Source: Escherichia coli
Lineage (GTDB): Bacteria > Pseudomonadota > Gammaproteobacteria > Enterobacterales > Enterobacteriaceae
Length of the DNA: 64,000 nucleotides
Assembly: GCF_045037415.1 (NCBI RefSeq)
Contig: NZ_CP173438.1
Strand: one strand, 5' to 3'
Position numbers: made by a program. Within the stretch, counting starts at the first letter, position 1. Every line of letters begins with the position of its first letter. Below, piece after piece: positions 38,601-44,600 of the stretch.

Positions 38601-41600
38601 AAGTAGTGACTACATTAACGCTTGTTTTAACAGCAGTAGGGTCTGTTTTACTGCTGCTGTTTTTAGTCATGAAGGCGCGTATGCACGCTTTCCTGGCTTT
38701 AATGGTGGTGTCCATGGGGGCTGGCCTTTTTTCCGGTATGCCGCTCGATAAAATCGCAGCGACGATGGAAAAAGGGATGGGAGGCACCCTCGGCTTCCTG
38801 GCGGTGGTTGTCGCCCTGGGAGCCATGTTTGGTAAGATCTTACATGAAACCGGCGCGGTCGATCAGATTGCCGTCAAAATGCTCAAATCCTTCGGTCACA
38901 GCCGCGTGCATTATGCCATCGGCCTTGCGGGGCTGGTTTGTGCGCTACCGCTGTTCTTTGAAGTGGCGATTGTTCTGCTGATTAGCGTTGCTTTCTCAAT
39001 GGCGCGCCACACCGGCACGAACCTGGTGAAGCTGGTAATCCCATTATTCGCCGGCGTGGCGGCAGCGGCTGCGTTCCTGGTGCCTGGGCCAGCGCCAATG
39101 CTGCTGGCATCGCAGATGAACGCCGACTTTGGCTGGATGATCCTGATTGGCCTGTGCGCGGCAATTCCGGGAATGATTATTGCCGGGCCGCTGTGGGGTA
39201 ATTTCATCAGCCGCTACGTGGAGTTGCATATTCCTGACGACATCAGCGAACCGCATCTCGGCGAAGGCAAAATGCCGTCCTTCGGATTCAGCCTGTCGCT
39301 GATCCTGTTGCCACTGGTGCTGGTGGGGCTGAAAACCATTGCCGCGCGTTTTGTGCCAGAAGGTTCTACCGCTTACGAATGGTTCGAGTTTATTGGTCAT
39401 CCGTTTACCGCGATTCTGGTTGCTTGCCTGGTGGCGATTTACGGTCTGGCAATGCGTCAGGGTATGCCAAAAGACAAAGTGATGGAGATTTGCGGTCACG
39501 CGCTGCAACCGGCGGGGATCATTCTGCTGGTGATTGGTGCGGGCGGCGTGTTCAAACAGGTGCTGGTTGACTCTGGTGTCGGTCCGGCACTGGGCGAAGC
39601 GTTAACCGGCATGGGCCTGCCGATTGCCATCACCTGCTTCGTGCTGGCAGCTGCAGTGCGCATCATTCAGGGTTCTGCTACCGTTGCCTGTTTAACGGCG
39701 GTGGGATTGGTAATGCCGGTCATTGAACAACTGAACTACTCCGGTGCGCAAATGGCGGCACTGTCGATTTGTATCGCCGGTGGTTCGATTGTTGTCAGCC
39801 ACGTTAACGACGCGGGTTTCTGGTTGTTCGGTAAATTTACCGGCGCGACCGAAGCCGAAACGCTTAAAACCTGGACCATGATGGAAACCATCCTCGGCAC
39901 TGTCGGTGCCATCGTTGGGATGATTGCGTTCCAGCTGTTGAGTTAATTACTGCGACAAATTACTGCGAGCTTGCTCGCAGTAATTCATTTCTCTTTTCTC
40001 CTGTCTTCATCTTTTTGATCTCTCTCGCAAAAAGACCGGAACATTATCCGTTCTAATCACTGTGTTAACGGACGAGGGAGAAGATGATGGAGAAACACGG
40101 AGCTGAATTGCTGTTACAGCGGATGTTAAGTAACACCAGCGCTACTTTCAGGGAAGGGCAATGGGAAGCTATAGATGCGGTGGTTAATCAGCGGCGAAAA
40201 CTACTGGTTGTACAGCGCACCGGCTGGGGGAAAAGTGCCGTGTACTTCATCGCCAGTAAAATCTTCCGCGATCGCGGCGCTGGCCCGACAATTATCATCT
40301 CTCCTTTGCTTGCCCTGATGCGTAACCAGGTTGCCGCCGCTGAACGGTTAGGTATTACGGCTGAAACGTTGAATTCTACAAACAGGGAAGAATGGCAGCG
40401 CATTAGCGATAAGTTGCTGCAAGGTGGCGTAGATTGTCTGCTGATTTCACCTGAACGGTTGGCGAATCAGGATTTTCTTGAAACGGTTTTATATCCAGTC
40501 GCTGACCGCATCGGTTTACTGGTGGTCGATGAGGCGCACTGCATCTCTGATTGGGGCCACGATTTCCGCCCGGATTACCGACGTATATTAGATATTTTGC
40601 GCCAACTGCCTGCGAATACCCCTATTCTGGGTACAACCGCGACAGCGAATAACCGTGTCGTTGAGGATATCCGTCAGCAATTGGGTGACATTGTGATTCA
40701 GCGTGGAACGCTGGCTCGCGAAAGTTTGGCGCTTGATGCCTTAGTCTTAGGAGAACAGTCATCCCGTCTGGCATGGTTAGCAACGGTTATCCCTCAGTTT
40801 TCCAAATCGGGAATTGTTTATACCCTGACGACTCGCGATGCTGAACTTGTCGCCGAGTGGTTAAGGAAAAATGGTATCAGTGCATTTGCTTATTACAGCG
40901 GCGTGACTTGTGAAGGTGCGGAAGATTCTAATACTGCCAGGGAGTATCTGGAGCAGGCACTGCTGGCAAATAAAATCAAAGTGCTGGTCGCGACGACGGC
41001 ATTAGGTATGGGATTTGATAAACCTGATTTAGGTTTCGTCATTCATTATCAGATGCCGGGGTCTATTGTCGGTTACTACCAACAGGTGGGGCGTGCCGGG
41101 CGTGCTATAGATTCCGCAGTTGGCATATTGCTTTGTGGTGGTGAAGACCGCGCTATTCATCAATTCTTCCGTGAAAGCGCCTTTCCTGCGGAGGCGCAAA
41201 TTCATGAAATACTCAACGTACTTAGCGAGAATGACGGTCTTACCCTACGAGGCATTGAACAACGGACGAATCTTCGTTATGGGCAAATAGAAAAAGCACT
41301 GAAATTATTGGTAGCTGAAAATCCATCGCCTGTGGTGTATACCGAGAAATTATGGCGCAGAACTATCGTCAGTTTTTCTCCTGATCATGAACGAATTAAC
41401 CATTTGATGAATCAGAGAAAAAGTGAGTTGGCAGACGTTGAAAGCTATATCACGACCAAGGAGTGCAAAATGCAATTTCTGCGCCGCGCACTCGATGAGC
41501 CAAGTGCCGAACGTTGTGGTAAATGTAGCAGTTGTCTTCAGCATCCGCTGTTGTCGCCCGACATTGATAGCGACTTACTCCATGCGGCAAATTTATTTAT

Positions 41601-44600
41601 TAAACACGCTGACCTGCCATTAAATCTCAATAAACAGGTGGCATCTGGGGCTTTTACGCAATACGGATTTAAAGGGAACTTGCCTGCGGGTTTACAAGGA
41701 TCTACGGGGCGAATCCTTTCTCGTTGGGGAGATTCCGGGTGGGGAAAGCAGGTAGCCCAGGAGAAAAAAACGGGGCGCTTCAGTGATGAGCTGGTGGAGG
41801 CATGTGCGGAAATGGTTCGCCAACGCTGGAATCCGCATCCTGAACCCACCTGGGTATGCTGCGTTCCTTCATTAAGGCACCTCGACCTGGTTCCTGATTT
41901 TGCCCGGCGACTGGCGGCGAAACTTGGCTTACCTTTTATTGATGCCATTGAAAAAGTCGTGGACAATCCACCGCAGAAAATGCAGCAAAACCGTTTTCAC
42001 CAGTGTCAAAATCTCGACGGGGCGTTTGTGATTACCCCTCCTTTGATGCCAGGTCCGGCGTTGCTGGTTGATGATATCGTGGATTCTGCATGGACGCTGA
42101 CAGTTCTGACAGCACTGTTACGCCAGGCAGGTTGCCCGACGGTTTATCCTCTTGCCCTTGCTTCTACCTCGGTAAAAAATTGATGAATCTTTCAGCCAAT
42201 GCTCAAGCAACTCTCCTGCTAACCAGCGATTTTTCTCGCGCGGCGGCGAGTGAGTATAAACCTCTTAGTAATAGTGAATGGGGGAAGTTTGCATTATGGC
42301 TGAAGCACCAACGTATCAGTCCCGCCGAGCTTCTGGTGCCGCAACCGCAAGAGAAACTTACAGGCTGGAGCGATCCGCGTATTTCTCAGGAGCGAATTCT
42401 TGGCTTGCTGGCGCGTGGTCATAGTCTGGCGTTGGCTGTAGATAAGTGGCAACGCGCCGGTTTATGGATCTTAACCCGCGGAGATGCCGATTATCCCGTT
42501 CGCTTGAAAAACCGATTGCGAACGGATGCACCTCCCGTTTTATTTGGCTGCGGGAATAAAGCATTACTGCAAGCGGAAGGTATGGCGATTGTTGGCTCGC
42601 GAGATGCTCCGACTGACGATTTGCGCTATACCCAACAACTGGCCGCGAAACTGGCCCAACAGGGGATTTGCGTTATCTCTGGTGGTGCGCGAGGTATTGA
42701 TGAATGTGCAATGGCCTCGGCTCTGGAGGTCGGGGGAACTGCCGTTGGCGTATTAGCTGATAGCTTGTTAAAAACGAGTACGTTAGTGAAATGGCGTGAA
42801 GGGCTTATAGCAGGCAACCTGGTGTTGATTTCGCCGTTTTACCCAGAGGTACGTTTCACCGTCGGCAATGCGATGGCGCGGAATAAATATATTTATTGCC
42901 TTGCTGAAAGCGCAATGGTTGTACGTGCGGGAATGACCGGTGGAACGATAACCGGGGCGATGGAGGCATTAAAACATCAGTGGCTGCCCATGCAGGTTAA
43001 ACCAAATCAGGATATGCAATCAGCCAATTCACGATTAGTAGAAAATGGGGCGTCATGGAGTGCTGAACAGGCTGAGAATGTGACGATCAGACTGCCAGAC
43101 GTTCCTGGGCTGATGTATGACAGAGCACTCCGTAACGCTCAACCAGAACTGTTTTCGCTGCACGAAGATGACGCAAATTACGCAGTAATGCCCGCGCATA
43201 CCCCTGTCGATTTTTATCAACTCTTTGTGGCGGAACTGGCGATCCTTGCAAAGGAATCGATAAGTATTGAAAGGCTGGCGTCTTGTACTGGTTTAACCAT
43301 CGAACAAATTAGTGTGTGGCTGAACCGCGCAGAAGAAGAGGGAAGGGTTATCCGATTGGGCGAAGGTCATTATCAGTTCAGGTAATAAAACAGGTGCCGC
43401 GTCTGGTTGTGTGCAACACCTGTTTGAACCTTACCCCTTCATCCACATTCGAATGCCGTCGAGGAACATCTGAGTTGCCATCATCACCAGAATCAATCCC
43501 ATCAGGCGTTCAAGTGCGTTCACCCCTTTCTCGCCCAGCAGACGTAAAAATAGCGAAGACTGTAGCAGGATGACAAAGGTGCCGCCCCAGGCCAGCAGCA
43601 GAGCAATCACCAGATGTCCCATCTGATTCGGGTACTGGTGAGACAACAACATCAGCGTGGCGAGAATAGTCGGCCCGGCGACTAACGGAATTGCCAACGG
43701 CACGATAAATGGCTCTTCACCTGCCGGAAGCCCGCTGCTATTTCCTGAAGCGCTGGGGAAAATCATCTTAATGGCGATCAGAAACAGAATGATGCCGCCA
43801 GAAATGGAGACGGTTTCTGCCCGCAGGCTAAGAAATGCCAGAATTTTCTCGCCCGCAAACAGGAACACCAGCATCACAAGGAGAGCAATAAGCAACTCTC
43901 GCACCATGATTGCCCGCCGTCTTTTCGGTTCAGTATGTTTCAGTACGGACATGAAAATAGGTAGGTTTCCGAGCGGATCCATAATCAGGATCAATAAAAC
44001 TGTTGCAGAAATGATTTCATTCATAACTCAAATTCCCTGATAATTGCCGCGGACTTTCTGCGTGCTAACAAAGCAGGATAAGTCGCATTACTGATGGCTT
44101 CGCTATCATTGATTAATTTCACTTGCGACTTTGGCTGCTTTTTGTATGGTGAAAGATGTGCCAGGAGGAGAACCGGCACATTTATACAGCACACATCTTT
44201 GCAGGAAAAAACGCTTATGAAAAATGTTGGTTTTATCGGCTGGCGCGGTATGGTCGGCTCCGTTCTCATGCAACGCATGGTTGAAGAGCGCGACTTCGAC
44301 GCCATTCGCCCTGTCTTCTTTTCTACTTCTCAGCTTGGTCAGGCTGCGCCGTCTTTTGGCGGAACCACTGGCACACTTCAGGATGCCTTTGATCTGGAGG
44401 CGCTAAAGGCCCTCGATATCATTGTGACCTGTCAGGGCGGCGATTATACCAACGAAATCTATCCAAAGCTTCGTGAAAGCGGATGGCAAGGTTACTGGAT
44501 TGACGCAGCATCATCTCTGCGCATGAAAGATGACGCCATCATCATTCTTGACCCCGTCAATCAGGACGTCATTACCGACGGATTAAATAATGGCATCAGG

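What the first reader, a model, noticed from the sequence alone, without database searches (positions are those of the whole stretch)
40084..42183. Unusual helicase architecture: RecQ core and zinc motif, no obvious HRDC, C-terminal ComF-like PRTase domain with degenerate PRPP loop
Residues ~40-340 carry RecQ motifs (GWGKS, DEAH followed by CISDWGHDFRPDY, QQVGRAGR). Residues ~460-485 have a RecQ-type zinc pattern (C-x16-CGKCSSC). The last ~140 residues resemble the ComF/GntX phosphoribosyltransferase fold (NPPQKMQQNRFHQCQNLDGAFVI ... LLVDDIVDSAWTL). Where classical type-I PRTases have an acidic patch followed by TTG, this protein has DSAW, suggesting a non-catalytic or nucleotide-sensing domain. 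A RecQ-PRT fusion is not a housekeeping E. coli protein that I know.
Basis: partly seen in the sequence, partly recalled or inferred. Interest (0 to 1): 0.75.

Follow-up and report, generated by a model that had tools for sequence, protein, structure and literature searches.

The report
Known RqlH/PsyrT helicase-PRTase toxin gene
This gene is the already published E. coli RqlH (PsyrT), a RecQ-like helicase fused to a ComF-like phosphoribosyltransferase domain that damages DNA unless its partner RqlI (PsyrA), encoded just downstream, restrains it; the sequence description is accurate but the protein is not new.

Summary
The architecture is a RecQ ATPase core, a RecQ-type Cx16Cx2Cx2C zinc module, no HRDC or RQC domain, and a C-terminal ComF-like PRT domain. 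Profile, structure-prediction and fold searches all support it.

This architecture was published for Mycobacterium smegmatis RqlH in 2012. This very E. coli gene pair, rqlH-rqlI, was dissected genetically in 2015. It is catalogued as the PsyrTA toxin-antitoxin / anti-phage system. The PADLOC PsyrT model covers the protein end to end at 1066 bits. The next gene (42183-43385) is PsyrA/RqlI at 671 bits.

The pair fills the gntU-yhgN spacer in 1641 of 5426 complete E. coli genomes.

The "degenerate PRPP loop, hence non-catalytic" reading is not supported:
- D663, D664, S668 and T671 are invariant in 32 diverse homologues.
- DS-G and DT-A loops occur in active HPRT and PRPP synthetase.
- The published D663A mutation abolishes toxicity.

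Catalysis and the acceptor substrate have still never been shown.

Verdict: observation confirmed, interpretation partly supported, already known, low interest.

The parts
39947..43430 (+). Accessory segment (3484 bp) between the gntU stop and the yhgN stop. Genomes without rqlHI have a 56-bp spacer here instead.
   Evidence: Comparison of occupied and empty sites. 1641 of 5426 complete E. coli genomes are occupied, always on the chromosome. No integrase is annotated or seen among the ORFs, and I saw no flanking repeats on reading the junctions; no repeat or tRNA search was run.
39958..39985 (+). Terminator-like hairpin after gntU, upstream of rqlH.
   Evidence: 12-bp stem followed by a T-rich tail; sequence.
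40084..42183 (+). rqlH / psyrT: RecQ-like helicase-PRTase toxin. 699 aa from the first ATG; RefSeq and the literature numbering use the second ATG at 40087 (698 aa).
   Evidence: PADLOC PsyrT PDLC03928, 1065.7 bits, residues 3-698 on model positions 4-687 of 689. RefSeq WP_001296481.1, 'RecQ family ATP-dependent DNA helicase'. dN/dS 0.07-0.08 between E. coli alleles.
40141..41133 (+). RecQ-type SF2 ATPase/helicase core, residues 20-350. Motif I GWGKS is at 40222-40236 and DEAH at 40528-40539.
   Evidence: Pfam DEAD and Helicase_C. TIGR00614 recQ_fam scores 251 bits, above its cut-off of 219.8. E. coli RecQ core 1oyw matches at 4.4e-53. The full-length AF2 model matches RecQ cores at E about 1e-30, TM 0.70.
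41191..41361 (+). The 'RqlH-specific linker', residues 370-426, predicted as three helices plus a beta hairpin (winged-helix-like).
   Evidence: Secondary structure of the AF2 full-length model, local pLDDT about 90. Weak Pfam MarR_2 hit at 374-411, E 0.19. This is an inference only.
41386..41553 (+). RecQ-type zinc module, residues 435-490; ligands C461, C478, C481, C484 (Cx16Cx2Cx2C).
   Evidence: Sequence. Pfam RecQ_Zn_bind at 444-485, E 1.4e-3. Each Cys is present in 29 of 32 homologues. The spacing matches the RecQ tetracysteine module to which Ordonez 2012 aligns RqlH; the E. coli RecQ ligand numbers C380/C397/C400/C403 are from my own knowledge.
41566..42180 (+). ComF-like type I PRT domain, residues 495-699. 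This is the toxic effector and the RqlI-binding part.
42061..42099 (+). PRPP (ribose-5-phosphate) loop LLVDDIVDSAWTL, residues 660-672.
   Evidence: D663, D664, S668, T671 invariant; W670 in 31 of 32; position 669 is G16/R13/K2/A1. Identical in the three E. coli alleles compared, which span 96-100% DNA identity. It aligns with the DDIITTGTT loop of ComFC and the VDDVVTTGST loop of GntX.
42183..43385 (+). rqlI / psyrA: DprA-like antitoxin, 400 aa. Its ATG overlaps the rqlH stop (TGATG). RefSeq annotates an upstream start at 42090.
   Evidence: PADLOC PsyrA PDLC03927, 671 bits, residues 1-400 on model positions 1-397 of 398; ShosA 6e-27. Pfam DNA_processg_A at 89-292, 2e-50. Sequence of the junction. 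'RqlI 1-400' is the full length used in PMC4670107.

Best explanation
The ORF is rqlH (psyrT). With the translationally coupled downstream gene rqlI (psyrA) it forms the RqlHI / PsyrTA two-gene module, an accessory toxin-antitoxin and candidate abortive-infection system that sits in the gntU-yhgN spacer of about 30% of E. coli.

Proposed working:
- Residues 1 to about 490 form a RecQ-like 3'-5' ssDNA translocase/helicase. This was shown biochemically for the M. smegmatis homologue and is inferred here from intact motifs.
- Residues 495-699 form a ComF-like PRT domain whose PRPP-binding pocket is needed for toxicity.
- When unrestrained, the PRT domain causes DNA damage, SOS induction, filamentation and mutagenesis. 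It needs the rest of RqlH, since the PRT domain alone is not toxic.
- The DprA-like RqlI binds the PRT-containing C-terminus and, together with the helicase ATPase, keeps it in check.
- Phage infection, or another disturbance of DNA or ssDNA handling, is presumed to release this restraint.

Shown in the literature for the E. coli F11 orthologue: toxicity, its dependence on D663 and the PRT domain, the RqlH-RqlI interaction, and rescue by RqlI.

Inferred: that this allele behaves the same; that the PRT domain uses PRPP; and that the physiological role is anti-phage defence.

Unknown: the acceptor substrate, the chemistry of the DNA damage, and the trigger.
For: Identity:
- PADLOC PsyrT end to end, 1065.7 bits.
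- PsyrA next door, 671 bits.
- Same locus at 100% DNA identity in several RefSeq E. coli genomes (e.g. H3-H12), annotated 'RecQ family helicase' plus 'DprA' between gntU and yhgN.
- The residue numbering of the published mutants (K49, D148, D663, DIVD663) fits this sequence when counted from the ATG at 40087.

Architecture.

Function, from papers:
- Helicase activity and domain map of RqlH: PMC3378886.
- PRT-dependent genotoxicity, RqlI binding and rescue: PMC4670107.
- PsyrTA (= RqlHI) listed among systems giving phage resistance; a psyrA deletion could not be transformed: bioRxiv 2022.05.11.491447.
- Related PRT toxins and ComFC bind PRPP-Mg.

The gene is maintained by selection. dN/dS is 0.07-0.08, and residues 601-698 are identical in the three alleles compared, which are 96-100% identical in DNA.
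Against: - Nothing was tested experimentally on this exact allele here.
- The native E. coli PsyrTA of strain NILS69 gave no detectable protection against the phages tested, either in its host or in K-12 (bioRxiv 2024.12.20.629700). An anti-phage role for the E. coli version is therefore unproven.
- 55% of RqlH-carrying strains across bacteria have no RqlI. RqlH is therefore not always a toxin needing this antitoxin and may have a repair or DNA-processing role.
- No PRTase product has been shown for RqlH, ShosT or ComFC.
- The E. coli lineage carries Ala at loop position 669, where close relatives have Gly.
Confidence: 0.88

Rival explanations
1. One reading: the PRT domain is a non-catalytic ligand sensor. 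It would bind PRPP or a nucleotide and regulate the helicase or partner proteins rather than transfer a phosphoribosyl group.
For: - No transferase product is known for RqlH, ShosT or ComFC. ShosT binds PRPP but none of the purines tested. ComFC binds PRPP, NMPs and NDPs with an unknown physiological ligand.
- The loop position that is Gly in classical PRTases is G/R/K/A in this family.
- The PRPP-sensor idea is raised for ShosT in PMC12961424.
Against: - The loop is not degenerate: DD, S and T are invariant.
- The acidic pair coordinates the ribose hydroxyls and Mg in catalytic PRTases, and it is required for toxicity (D663A).
- A mere sensor does not readily explain PRT-dependent genotoxicity that gets worse when the helicase ATPase is dead (K49A).
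- Mutational loss of toxicity cannot separate binding from catalysis, so this reading is weakened but not refuted.
Confidence: 0.2
2. A DNA-repair or DNA-uptake helicase rather than a defence toxin. RqlH plus RqlI would be a fused analogue of the competence proteins ComFA (helicase), ComFC (PRT) and DprA, processing incoming or damaged ssDNA. Toxicity would be a side effect of imbalance.
For: - ComFC binds ssDNA and interacts with DprA in other species.
- RqlI is DprA-like.
- Mycobacteria with RqlH lack RecQ.
- Most RqlH-carrying strains lack RqlI.
- The parallel is drawn in PMC4670107 and PMC5512222.
Against: - E. coli already has RecQ, DprA and GntX (gntX is annotated about 30 kb away).
- The pair is dispensable and patchily distributed: 30% of genomes, with IS1-disrupted copies.
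- Deleting rqlH rescues the rqlI mutant with no reported cost.
- PsyrTA behaved as a toxin-antitoxin pair and gave phage resistance in heterologous tests.
Confidence: 0.1
3. A divergent copy of chromosomal RecQ or of DpdF (the helicase of the 7-deazaguanine DNA-modification dpd cluster).
For: RecQ and DpdF models hit the N-terminal half: TIGR01389 293 bits, NF041063 DpdF 147 bits, several PADLOC DpdF models up to 303 bits.
Against: All these scores are below the curated cut-offs (640 and 550). They cover only the ATPase core, or are fragments evidently built from RqlH-like sequences. There is no HRDC or RQC domain. There are no dpd genes nearby; the neighbours are gntRKU, yhgN, asd and glgB. 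The PsyrT model scores three times higher and covers the full length.
Confidence: 0.01

Closest known systems
E. coli F11 RqlH-RqlI (Russell & Mulvey 2015, PMC4670107)
   Same: Same species, same two-gene operon with overlapping genes, same domain map, and same residue numbering for K49, D148 and D663/DIVD when counted from the ATG at 40087. For practical purposes this is the same gene.
   Different: I could not retrieve the F11 sequence itself to state percent identity. The E. coli alleles I did compare are 97-100% identical in protein.
Mycobacterium smegmatis RqlH (Ordonez, Unciuleac & Shuman 2012, PMC3378886)
   Same: Same order of modules: RecQ-like ATPase, about 90-aa linker, tetracysteine Zn module, ComF/PRT-like C-domain, no HRDC. 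The size is also similar (691 vs 699 aa). That paper notes that non-K-12 E. coli carry RqlH.
   Different: A distant orthologue. It was characterised as a helicase only (3'-5' translocase; the C-domain is dispensable for unwinding). The mycobacteria that encode RqlH have no classical RecQ.
PsyrTA toxin-antitoxin / anti-phage system (Sberro 2013; Millman 2022; PADLOC and DefenseFinder)
   Same: Both proteins match the PADLOC PsyrT and PsyrA models end to end. The toxin is helicase-PRT and the antitoxin is DprA-like.
   Different: Anti-phage activity was shown for another donor's system. The native E. coli NILS69 copy showed none against the phages tested.
ShosTA (ShosT PRTase toxin + ShosA DprA-like antitoxin; PDB 8ZVA-8ZVD, 9VZO, 9W2P, 9W2Q)
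   Same: A PRT-domain toxin whose PRPP pocket (D331/D332) is needed for toxicity, causing DNA damage and filamentation, with a DprA-like antitoxin. PsyrA hits the ShosA model at 6e-27.
ComFC / GntX competence proteins (H. pylori ComFC, PDB 7P0H)
   Different: The NCBIfam comF and GntX models score far below cut-off (11 vs 234 bits; 15 vs 304 bits). ComF's RGFNQ motif and TTG loop are replaced. ComF's own N-terminal zinc finger is absent; a RecQ-type Zn module precedes the domain instead.
E. coli RecQ
   Same: SF2 ATPase core with RecQ motifs and the Cx16Cx2Cx2C zinc ligands. About 30% identity over about 490 aligned columns, TM 0.70.
   Different: No RQC winged helix after the zinc module and no HRDC. 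An extra winged-helix-like insert sits before the zinc module, and a PRT domain is at the C-terminus. The equivalog model fails (293 vs 640 bits).

Membership tests
RqlH / PsyrT | Full-length match to the family profile | tested here: met
   PADLOC PDLC03928, 1065.7 bits, residues 3-698 on model positions 4-687 of 689.
RqlH / PsyrT | RecQ-like SF2 ATPase core with intact motifs I, II and VI | tested here: met
   GWGKS 47-51, DEAH 149-152, QQVGRAGR 333-340. TIGR00614 scores 251 bits, above its cut-off of 219.8. 1oyw matches at 4e-53.
RqlH / PsyrT | RecQ-type tetracysteine zinc module separated from the ATPase by a linker of about 90 aa | tested here: met
   C461/C478/C481/C484; RecQ_Zn_bind at 444-485; the linker spans about 350-445.
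RqlH / PsyrT | No HRDC domain | tested here: met
   No HRDC or RQC hit at E<=10 in Pfam. The C-terminus is fully occupied by the PRT domain.
RqlH / PsyrT | C-terminal ComF-like PRT domain | tested here: met
PsyrTA / RqlHI system | Adjacent DprA-like antitoxin gene (PsyrA/RqlI) in the same operon | tested here: met
   42183-43385; PADLOC PsyrA 671 bits; Pfam DNA_processg_A 2e-50; TGATG start/stop overlap.
PsyrTA / RqlHI system | Toxin toxic alone and neutralised by the antitoxin; protection against phage | not testable with these tools
   Literature only. Toxicity and rescue were shown for E. coli F11. Phage resistance was shown for another donor's system. None was detected for E. coli NILS69.
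Canonical RecQ (TIGR01389 / PRK11057 equivalogs) | Score above the curated cut-off over the full length, with RQC and HRDC present | tested here: not met
   293 bits against 640 and 223 against 1015; only residues about 20-366 are covered. No RQC or HRDC.
ComF / GntX family | Score above the curated cut-off (TIGR00201, NF008616) | tested here: not met
   11.3 bits against 233.6 and 15.4 against 304. It resembles ComF in fold but is not a member.
Type I PRTase (PRT family) | PRT fold with a PRPP loop: two acidic residues, two hydrophobic residues, then [DST]-[ST]-x-x-T | tested here: met
   VDDIVDSAWT. D663, D664, S668 and T671 are invariant in the family. Fold hits.
Type I PRTase (PRT family) | Catalysis of phosphoribosyl transfer from PRPP | not testable with these tools
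   Never shown for RqlH, ShosT or ComFC.
ShosTA | Toxin matches the ShosT profile (hydrolase + PRT) | tested here: not met
DpdF (dpd cluster) | Equivalog score and dpd gene neighbourhood | tested here: not met
   NF041063 scores 147 bits against a cut-off of 550. The neighbours are gntRKU, yhgN, asd and glgB.

The most novel reading that the evidence does not exclude
The PRT domain of RqlH might act on DNA rather than on a free base. ssDNA threaded by the fused 3'-5' helicase would be presented to a ComF-like PRPP pocket. That pocket carries family-specific features: an invariant Trp670, and G/R/K/A where classical enzymes need Gly. A DNA base or DNA end would then be phosphoribosylated, or otherwise modified in a PRPP-dependent way, and this would be the genotoxic lesion.

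Russell & Mulvey raised this as speculation. My evidence neither supports nor excludes it.
Probability: 0.1. Interest if true: 0.8.

Novelty: already known. Interest (0 to 1): 0.15.

Why it matters
As a discovery it does not matter, because the architecture (2012), this E. coli gene pair (2015) and its listing as a defence system (2022) are all in print.

The biology is still open. No one knows what the PRT domain of RqlH/PsyrT, ShosT or ComFC transfers or senses. It is also unknown how that damages DNA, or what sets it off.

RqlI affects ExPEC fitness in infection models, and the pair is present in about a third of sequenced E. coli. Solving the chemistry would therefore have some medical and mechanistic value.

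Tried and rejected
- Single-sequence searches of the C-terminal 200 aa against the PDB (best E 0.26), NCBIfam (GntX 0.0095, HGPRT 0.018, comF 0.24) and Pfam (0.0087) were individually too weak. I replaced them with a 32-sequence profile, structure prediction and fold search.
- DpdF and canonical RecQ membership were considered and rejected on curated cut-offs and gene context.
- Mobile-element origin: the junctions show a clean replacement of the 56-bp spacer, no integrase is annotated in the flanks, and no repeats were seen by eye; no tRNA or repeat search was run.
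- A simple sigma-70 scan found no consensus promoter on the + strand between the gntU terminator and rqlH, so the promoter is undefined.
- I could not test the RqlH-RqlI complex because no multimer prediction is available. I could not inspect model coordinates, so the position of the PRT pocket relative to the ssDNA path is unknown.
- Two Python attempts to read locus L003 failed because the file had not been exported. I read the junctions by eye instead.

Full report
**Observation**

The window has an ATG-initiated ORF at 40084..42183 on the + strand, 699 aa.
- GWGKS 47-51
- DEAH 149-152, followed by CISDWGHDFRPDY 153-165
- QQVGRAGR 333-340
- C461-x16-C478-x2-C481-x2-C484
- NPPQKMQQNRFHQCQNLDGAFVI 628-650
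- LLVDDIVDSAWTL 660-672

Pfam gives DEAD (24-195), Helicase_C (240-341), a weak RecQ_Zn_bind (444-485, E 1.4e-3) and a weak Pribosyltran (606-684, E 8.7e-3). It gives no HRDC or RQC hit. NCBIfam places the protein in the RecQ subfamily (TIGR00614, 251 bits against a cut-off of 219.8). It fails the RecQ equivalog (293 bits against 640), with only residues 20-366 aligned. Neither is met.

**What it is**

The PADLOC PsyrT model matches end to end: 1065.7 bits, residues 3-698 on model positions 4-687 of 689. The ORF downstream matches PsyrA at 671 bits, covering residues 1-400 when started at ATG 42183. It carries a DprA domain (Pfam DNA_processg_A 89-292, 2e-50).

The rqlH stop (42181-42183) and this ATG overlap as TGATG. 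RefSeq annotates an earlier start at 42090. The 400-aa version is the one that fits both the profile and the "RqlI 1-400" of the literature.

PsyrTA is the same system as RqlHI.

**Genomic setting**

The neighbours are yhhX, yhhW, gntR, gntK and gntU on one side. On the other are yhgN (opposite strand), asd, glgB and glgX. In complete RefSeq E. coli genomes, 1641 of 5426 carry the segment, always on the chromosome and always at this site. The rest have gntU and yhgN directly adjacent.

Comparing an empty site with the window shows that a 56-bp spacer is replaced by 3484 bp (39947-43430), from stop codon to stop codon. No integrase is annotated in the flanks and I saw no repeats when reading the junctions; I ran no tRNA or repeat search on them. 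A terminator-like hairpin follows gntU at 39958-39985. The simple scan found no consensus sigma-70 promoter before rqlH.

Three E. coli alleles were compared; they are 96-100% identical in DNA and 97-100% in protein. Residues 601-698, including the PRPP loop, are identical in all three. dN/dS is 0.07-0.08. The gene is therefore maintained by selection. Some genomes have IS1-split copies, and Shigella sonnei has truncated ones.

**The C-terminal domain**

Single-sequence evidence is weak, so I built a 32-sequence alignment of residues 495-699 from representatives that are 38-68% identical to the query. The results:
- Pfam PF00156 matches 20 of the 32 members at E<=1e-3, best 4.7e-10.
- The profile hits PRT-fold proteins almost exclusively in the PDB (59 of the 60 hits at E<=10): PRPP synthetases at 3e-6, then HPRTs, PurF and APRTs.
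- AlphaFold2 gives pLDDT 95.7.
- All 50 Foldseek PDB hits listed are PRTases or ComF.
- hhalign against E. coli GntX gives 94% probability, E 1.1e-7, over 106 columns. It aligns the VP.., Q..N, NL..AF and VDD....T motifs.

**The PRPP loop**

In 32 diverse homologues D663, D664, S668 and T671 are invariant, and W670 is present in 31. Position 669 is G in 16, R in 13, K in 2 and A in 1. The E. coli lineage is the Ala case, and close relatives have DSGWT.

The aligned loops of active enzymes include DDIIDTAGT in B. subtilis PRPP synthetase. E. coli Hpt reads EDIIDSGNT; that sequence is from my own knowledge, and one search shows only that HPRT loops align here. H. pylori ComFC has DDIITTGTT and holds PRPP-Mg in the crystal. 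ShosT also binds PRPP, and its D331/D332 are needed for toxicity.

In E. coli F11 RqlH, D663A and DIVD663EVME abolish growth inhibition, SOS induction and filamentation. That numbering fits this sequence counted from the second ATG at 40087, which is also the RefSeq start.

The loop is therefore a conserved family variant that is required for function. It is not a decayed one. None of this separates ligand binding from catalysis, which has never been demonstrated.

**The N-terminal part**

The full-length AF2 model (pLDDT 91, pTM 0.88) matches RecQ catalytic cores: 4tmu at 7.7e-31, and 1oyw at 3.7e-29 with TM 0.70 and about 30% identity over about 490 columns.

The linker that Ordonez et al. 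called RqlH-specific is predicted, at residues 370-426, as three helices plus a beta hairpin. That is a winged-helix-like unit, and it lies before the zinc module. In RecQ the winged helix follows the zinc module. This is a prediction only; a weak MarR_2 hit agrees with it.

**Mechanism**

From the papers:
[quoted passage not shown] It translocates 3'-5' on ssDNA and unwinds duplexes. Its ComF-like domain is dispensable for that.
- In E. coli, RqlH without RqlI is genotoxic through its PRT domain.
- The PRT domain alone is not toxic.
- Helicase-dead K49A and D148A variants are worse, and K49A is rescued by adding D663A.
- RqlI co-precipitates with full-length RqlH but not with RqlH 1-509.
- PsyrTA was listed among two-gene toxin-antitoxin systems that give phage resistance, and a psyrA deletion could not be obtained.

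The best-supported model has three parts. A helicase module engages ssDNA. A PRPP-pocket effector causes DNA damage. A DprA-like partner, together with the helicase ATPase, restrains the effector until DNA metabolism is perturbed.

Caveats:
- The E. coli NILS69 copy showed no protection against the phages tested.
- More than half of RqlH-carrying strains lack RqlI.
- The acceptor substrate is unknown.

**Comparison and novelty**

The abstract of Ordonez, Unciuleac and Shuman 2012 describes the same arrangement and adds that non-K-12 E. coli have RqlH. It lists a RecQ-like ATPase, linker and tetracysteine zinc domain. It also notes the absence of HRDC and a ComF-like C-domain with a phosphoribosyltransferase-like module.

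Russell and Mulvey 2015 studied this gene pair in E. coli. Iyer et al. 2017 noted the parallel between the helicase-PRT fusion plus DprA and the competence proteins. Millman et al. 2022 listed it as a defence system.

The finding is therefore already known. What I can add is minor:
- The PRT domain is structurally much closer to ComF than to ShosT.
- Position 669 varies across the family, and Trp670 is conserved in 31 of 32 homologues.
- The rqlI start is most likely at 42183.
- The linker is predicted to be winged-helix-like.
- The site is occupied in 30% of complete genomes, as a clean replacement of the spacer.

**Verdict**

Novelty: already known. Interest: 0.15.

Noticed in passing
window 42090-42185: RefSeq annotates the DprA-like gene from ATG 42090, overlapping rqlH by 94 nt. 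The PADLOC PsyrA model and the published 400-aa RqlI fit a start at ATG 42183, which overlaps the rqlH stop as TGATG and suggests translational coupling.
   Followed up: partly
window 40084-40089: rqlH begins with two consecutive in-frame ATGs. RefSeq and the residue numbering of the 2015 paper (K49, D148, D663) correspond to the second one at 40087, which gives 698 aa.
   Followed up: yes
window 41191-41361 (RqlH residues 370-426): The 'RqlH-specific linker' is predicted with high confidence as three helices plus a beta hairpin, a winged-helix-like unit. It lies before the zinc module, whereas canonical RecQ has its winged helix after the zinc module. I found no mention of this in the papers I read.
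   Followed up: partly
window 40087-42183 compared with loci L005 and L006: Synonymous divergence between E. coli rqlH alleles is very uneven. Against the A30 allele, dS is 0.36 in the helicase part and 0.05 in the PRT part. This suggests recombination inside the gene (mosaic alleles).
   Followed up: partly
hits H1/H2 (NZ_OZ040267.1, NZ_OZ039848.1); proteins P0002-P0013: Some E. coli genomes have rqlH split by an IS1 element, and Shigella sonnei carries truncated versions of 594-657 aa. This looks like recurrent inactivation of the toxin gene; it was also noted for S. sonnei 53G in the 2015 paper.
   Followed up: no
window 20039-20839: Two ORFs (88 and 175 aa) lie between livJ and panM. They correspond to genes annotated ataR-ataT (GNAT acetyltransferase toxin-antitoxin pair) in the near-identical strain SK1144. 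This is a second accessory toxin-antitoxin module in the window.
   Followed up: partly
window 55077-58072: A three-gene cluster lies between glgP and glpD. It encodes a 505-aa protein with a PstS-family domain in its C-terminal half (TIGR02136, 119 bits, below cut-off) and two proteins of 255 and 201 aa with no NCBIfam or PADLOC hit. It is probably another accessory insertion of unknown function.
   Followed up: partly
one search hit list (for example P0133 927 aa, P0229 1441 aa, P0235 1056 aa, P0257 1720 aa, and many of 170-330 aa): The RqlH-type ComF-like PRT domain also occurs at the C-terminus of much longer proteins and in short proteins of about 170-330 aa. Some of these may be gene fragments. 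Their other domains were not examined.
   Followed up: no
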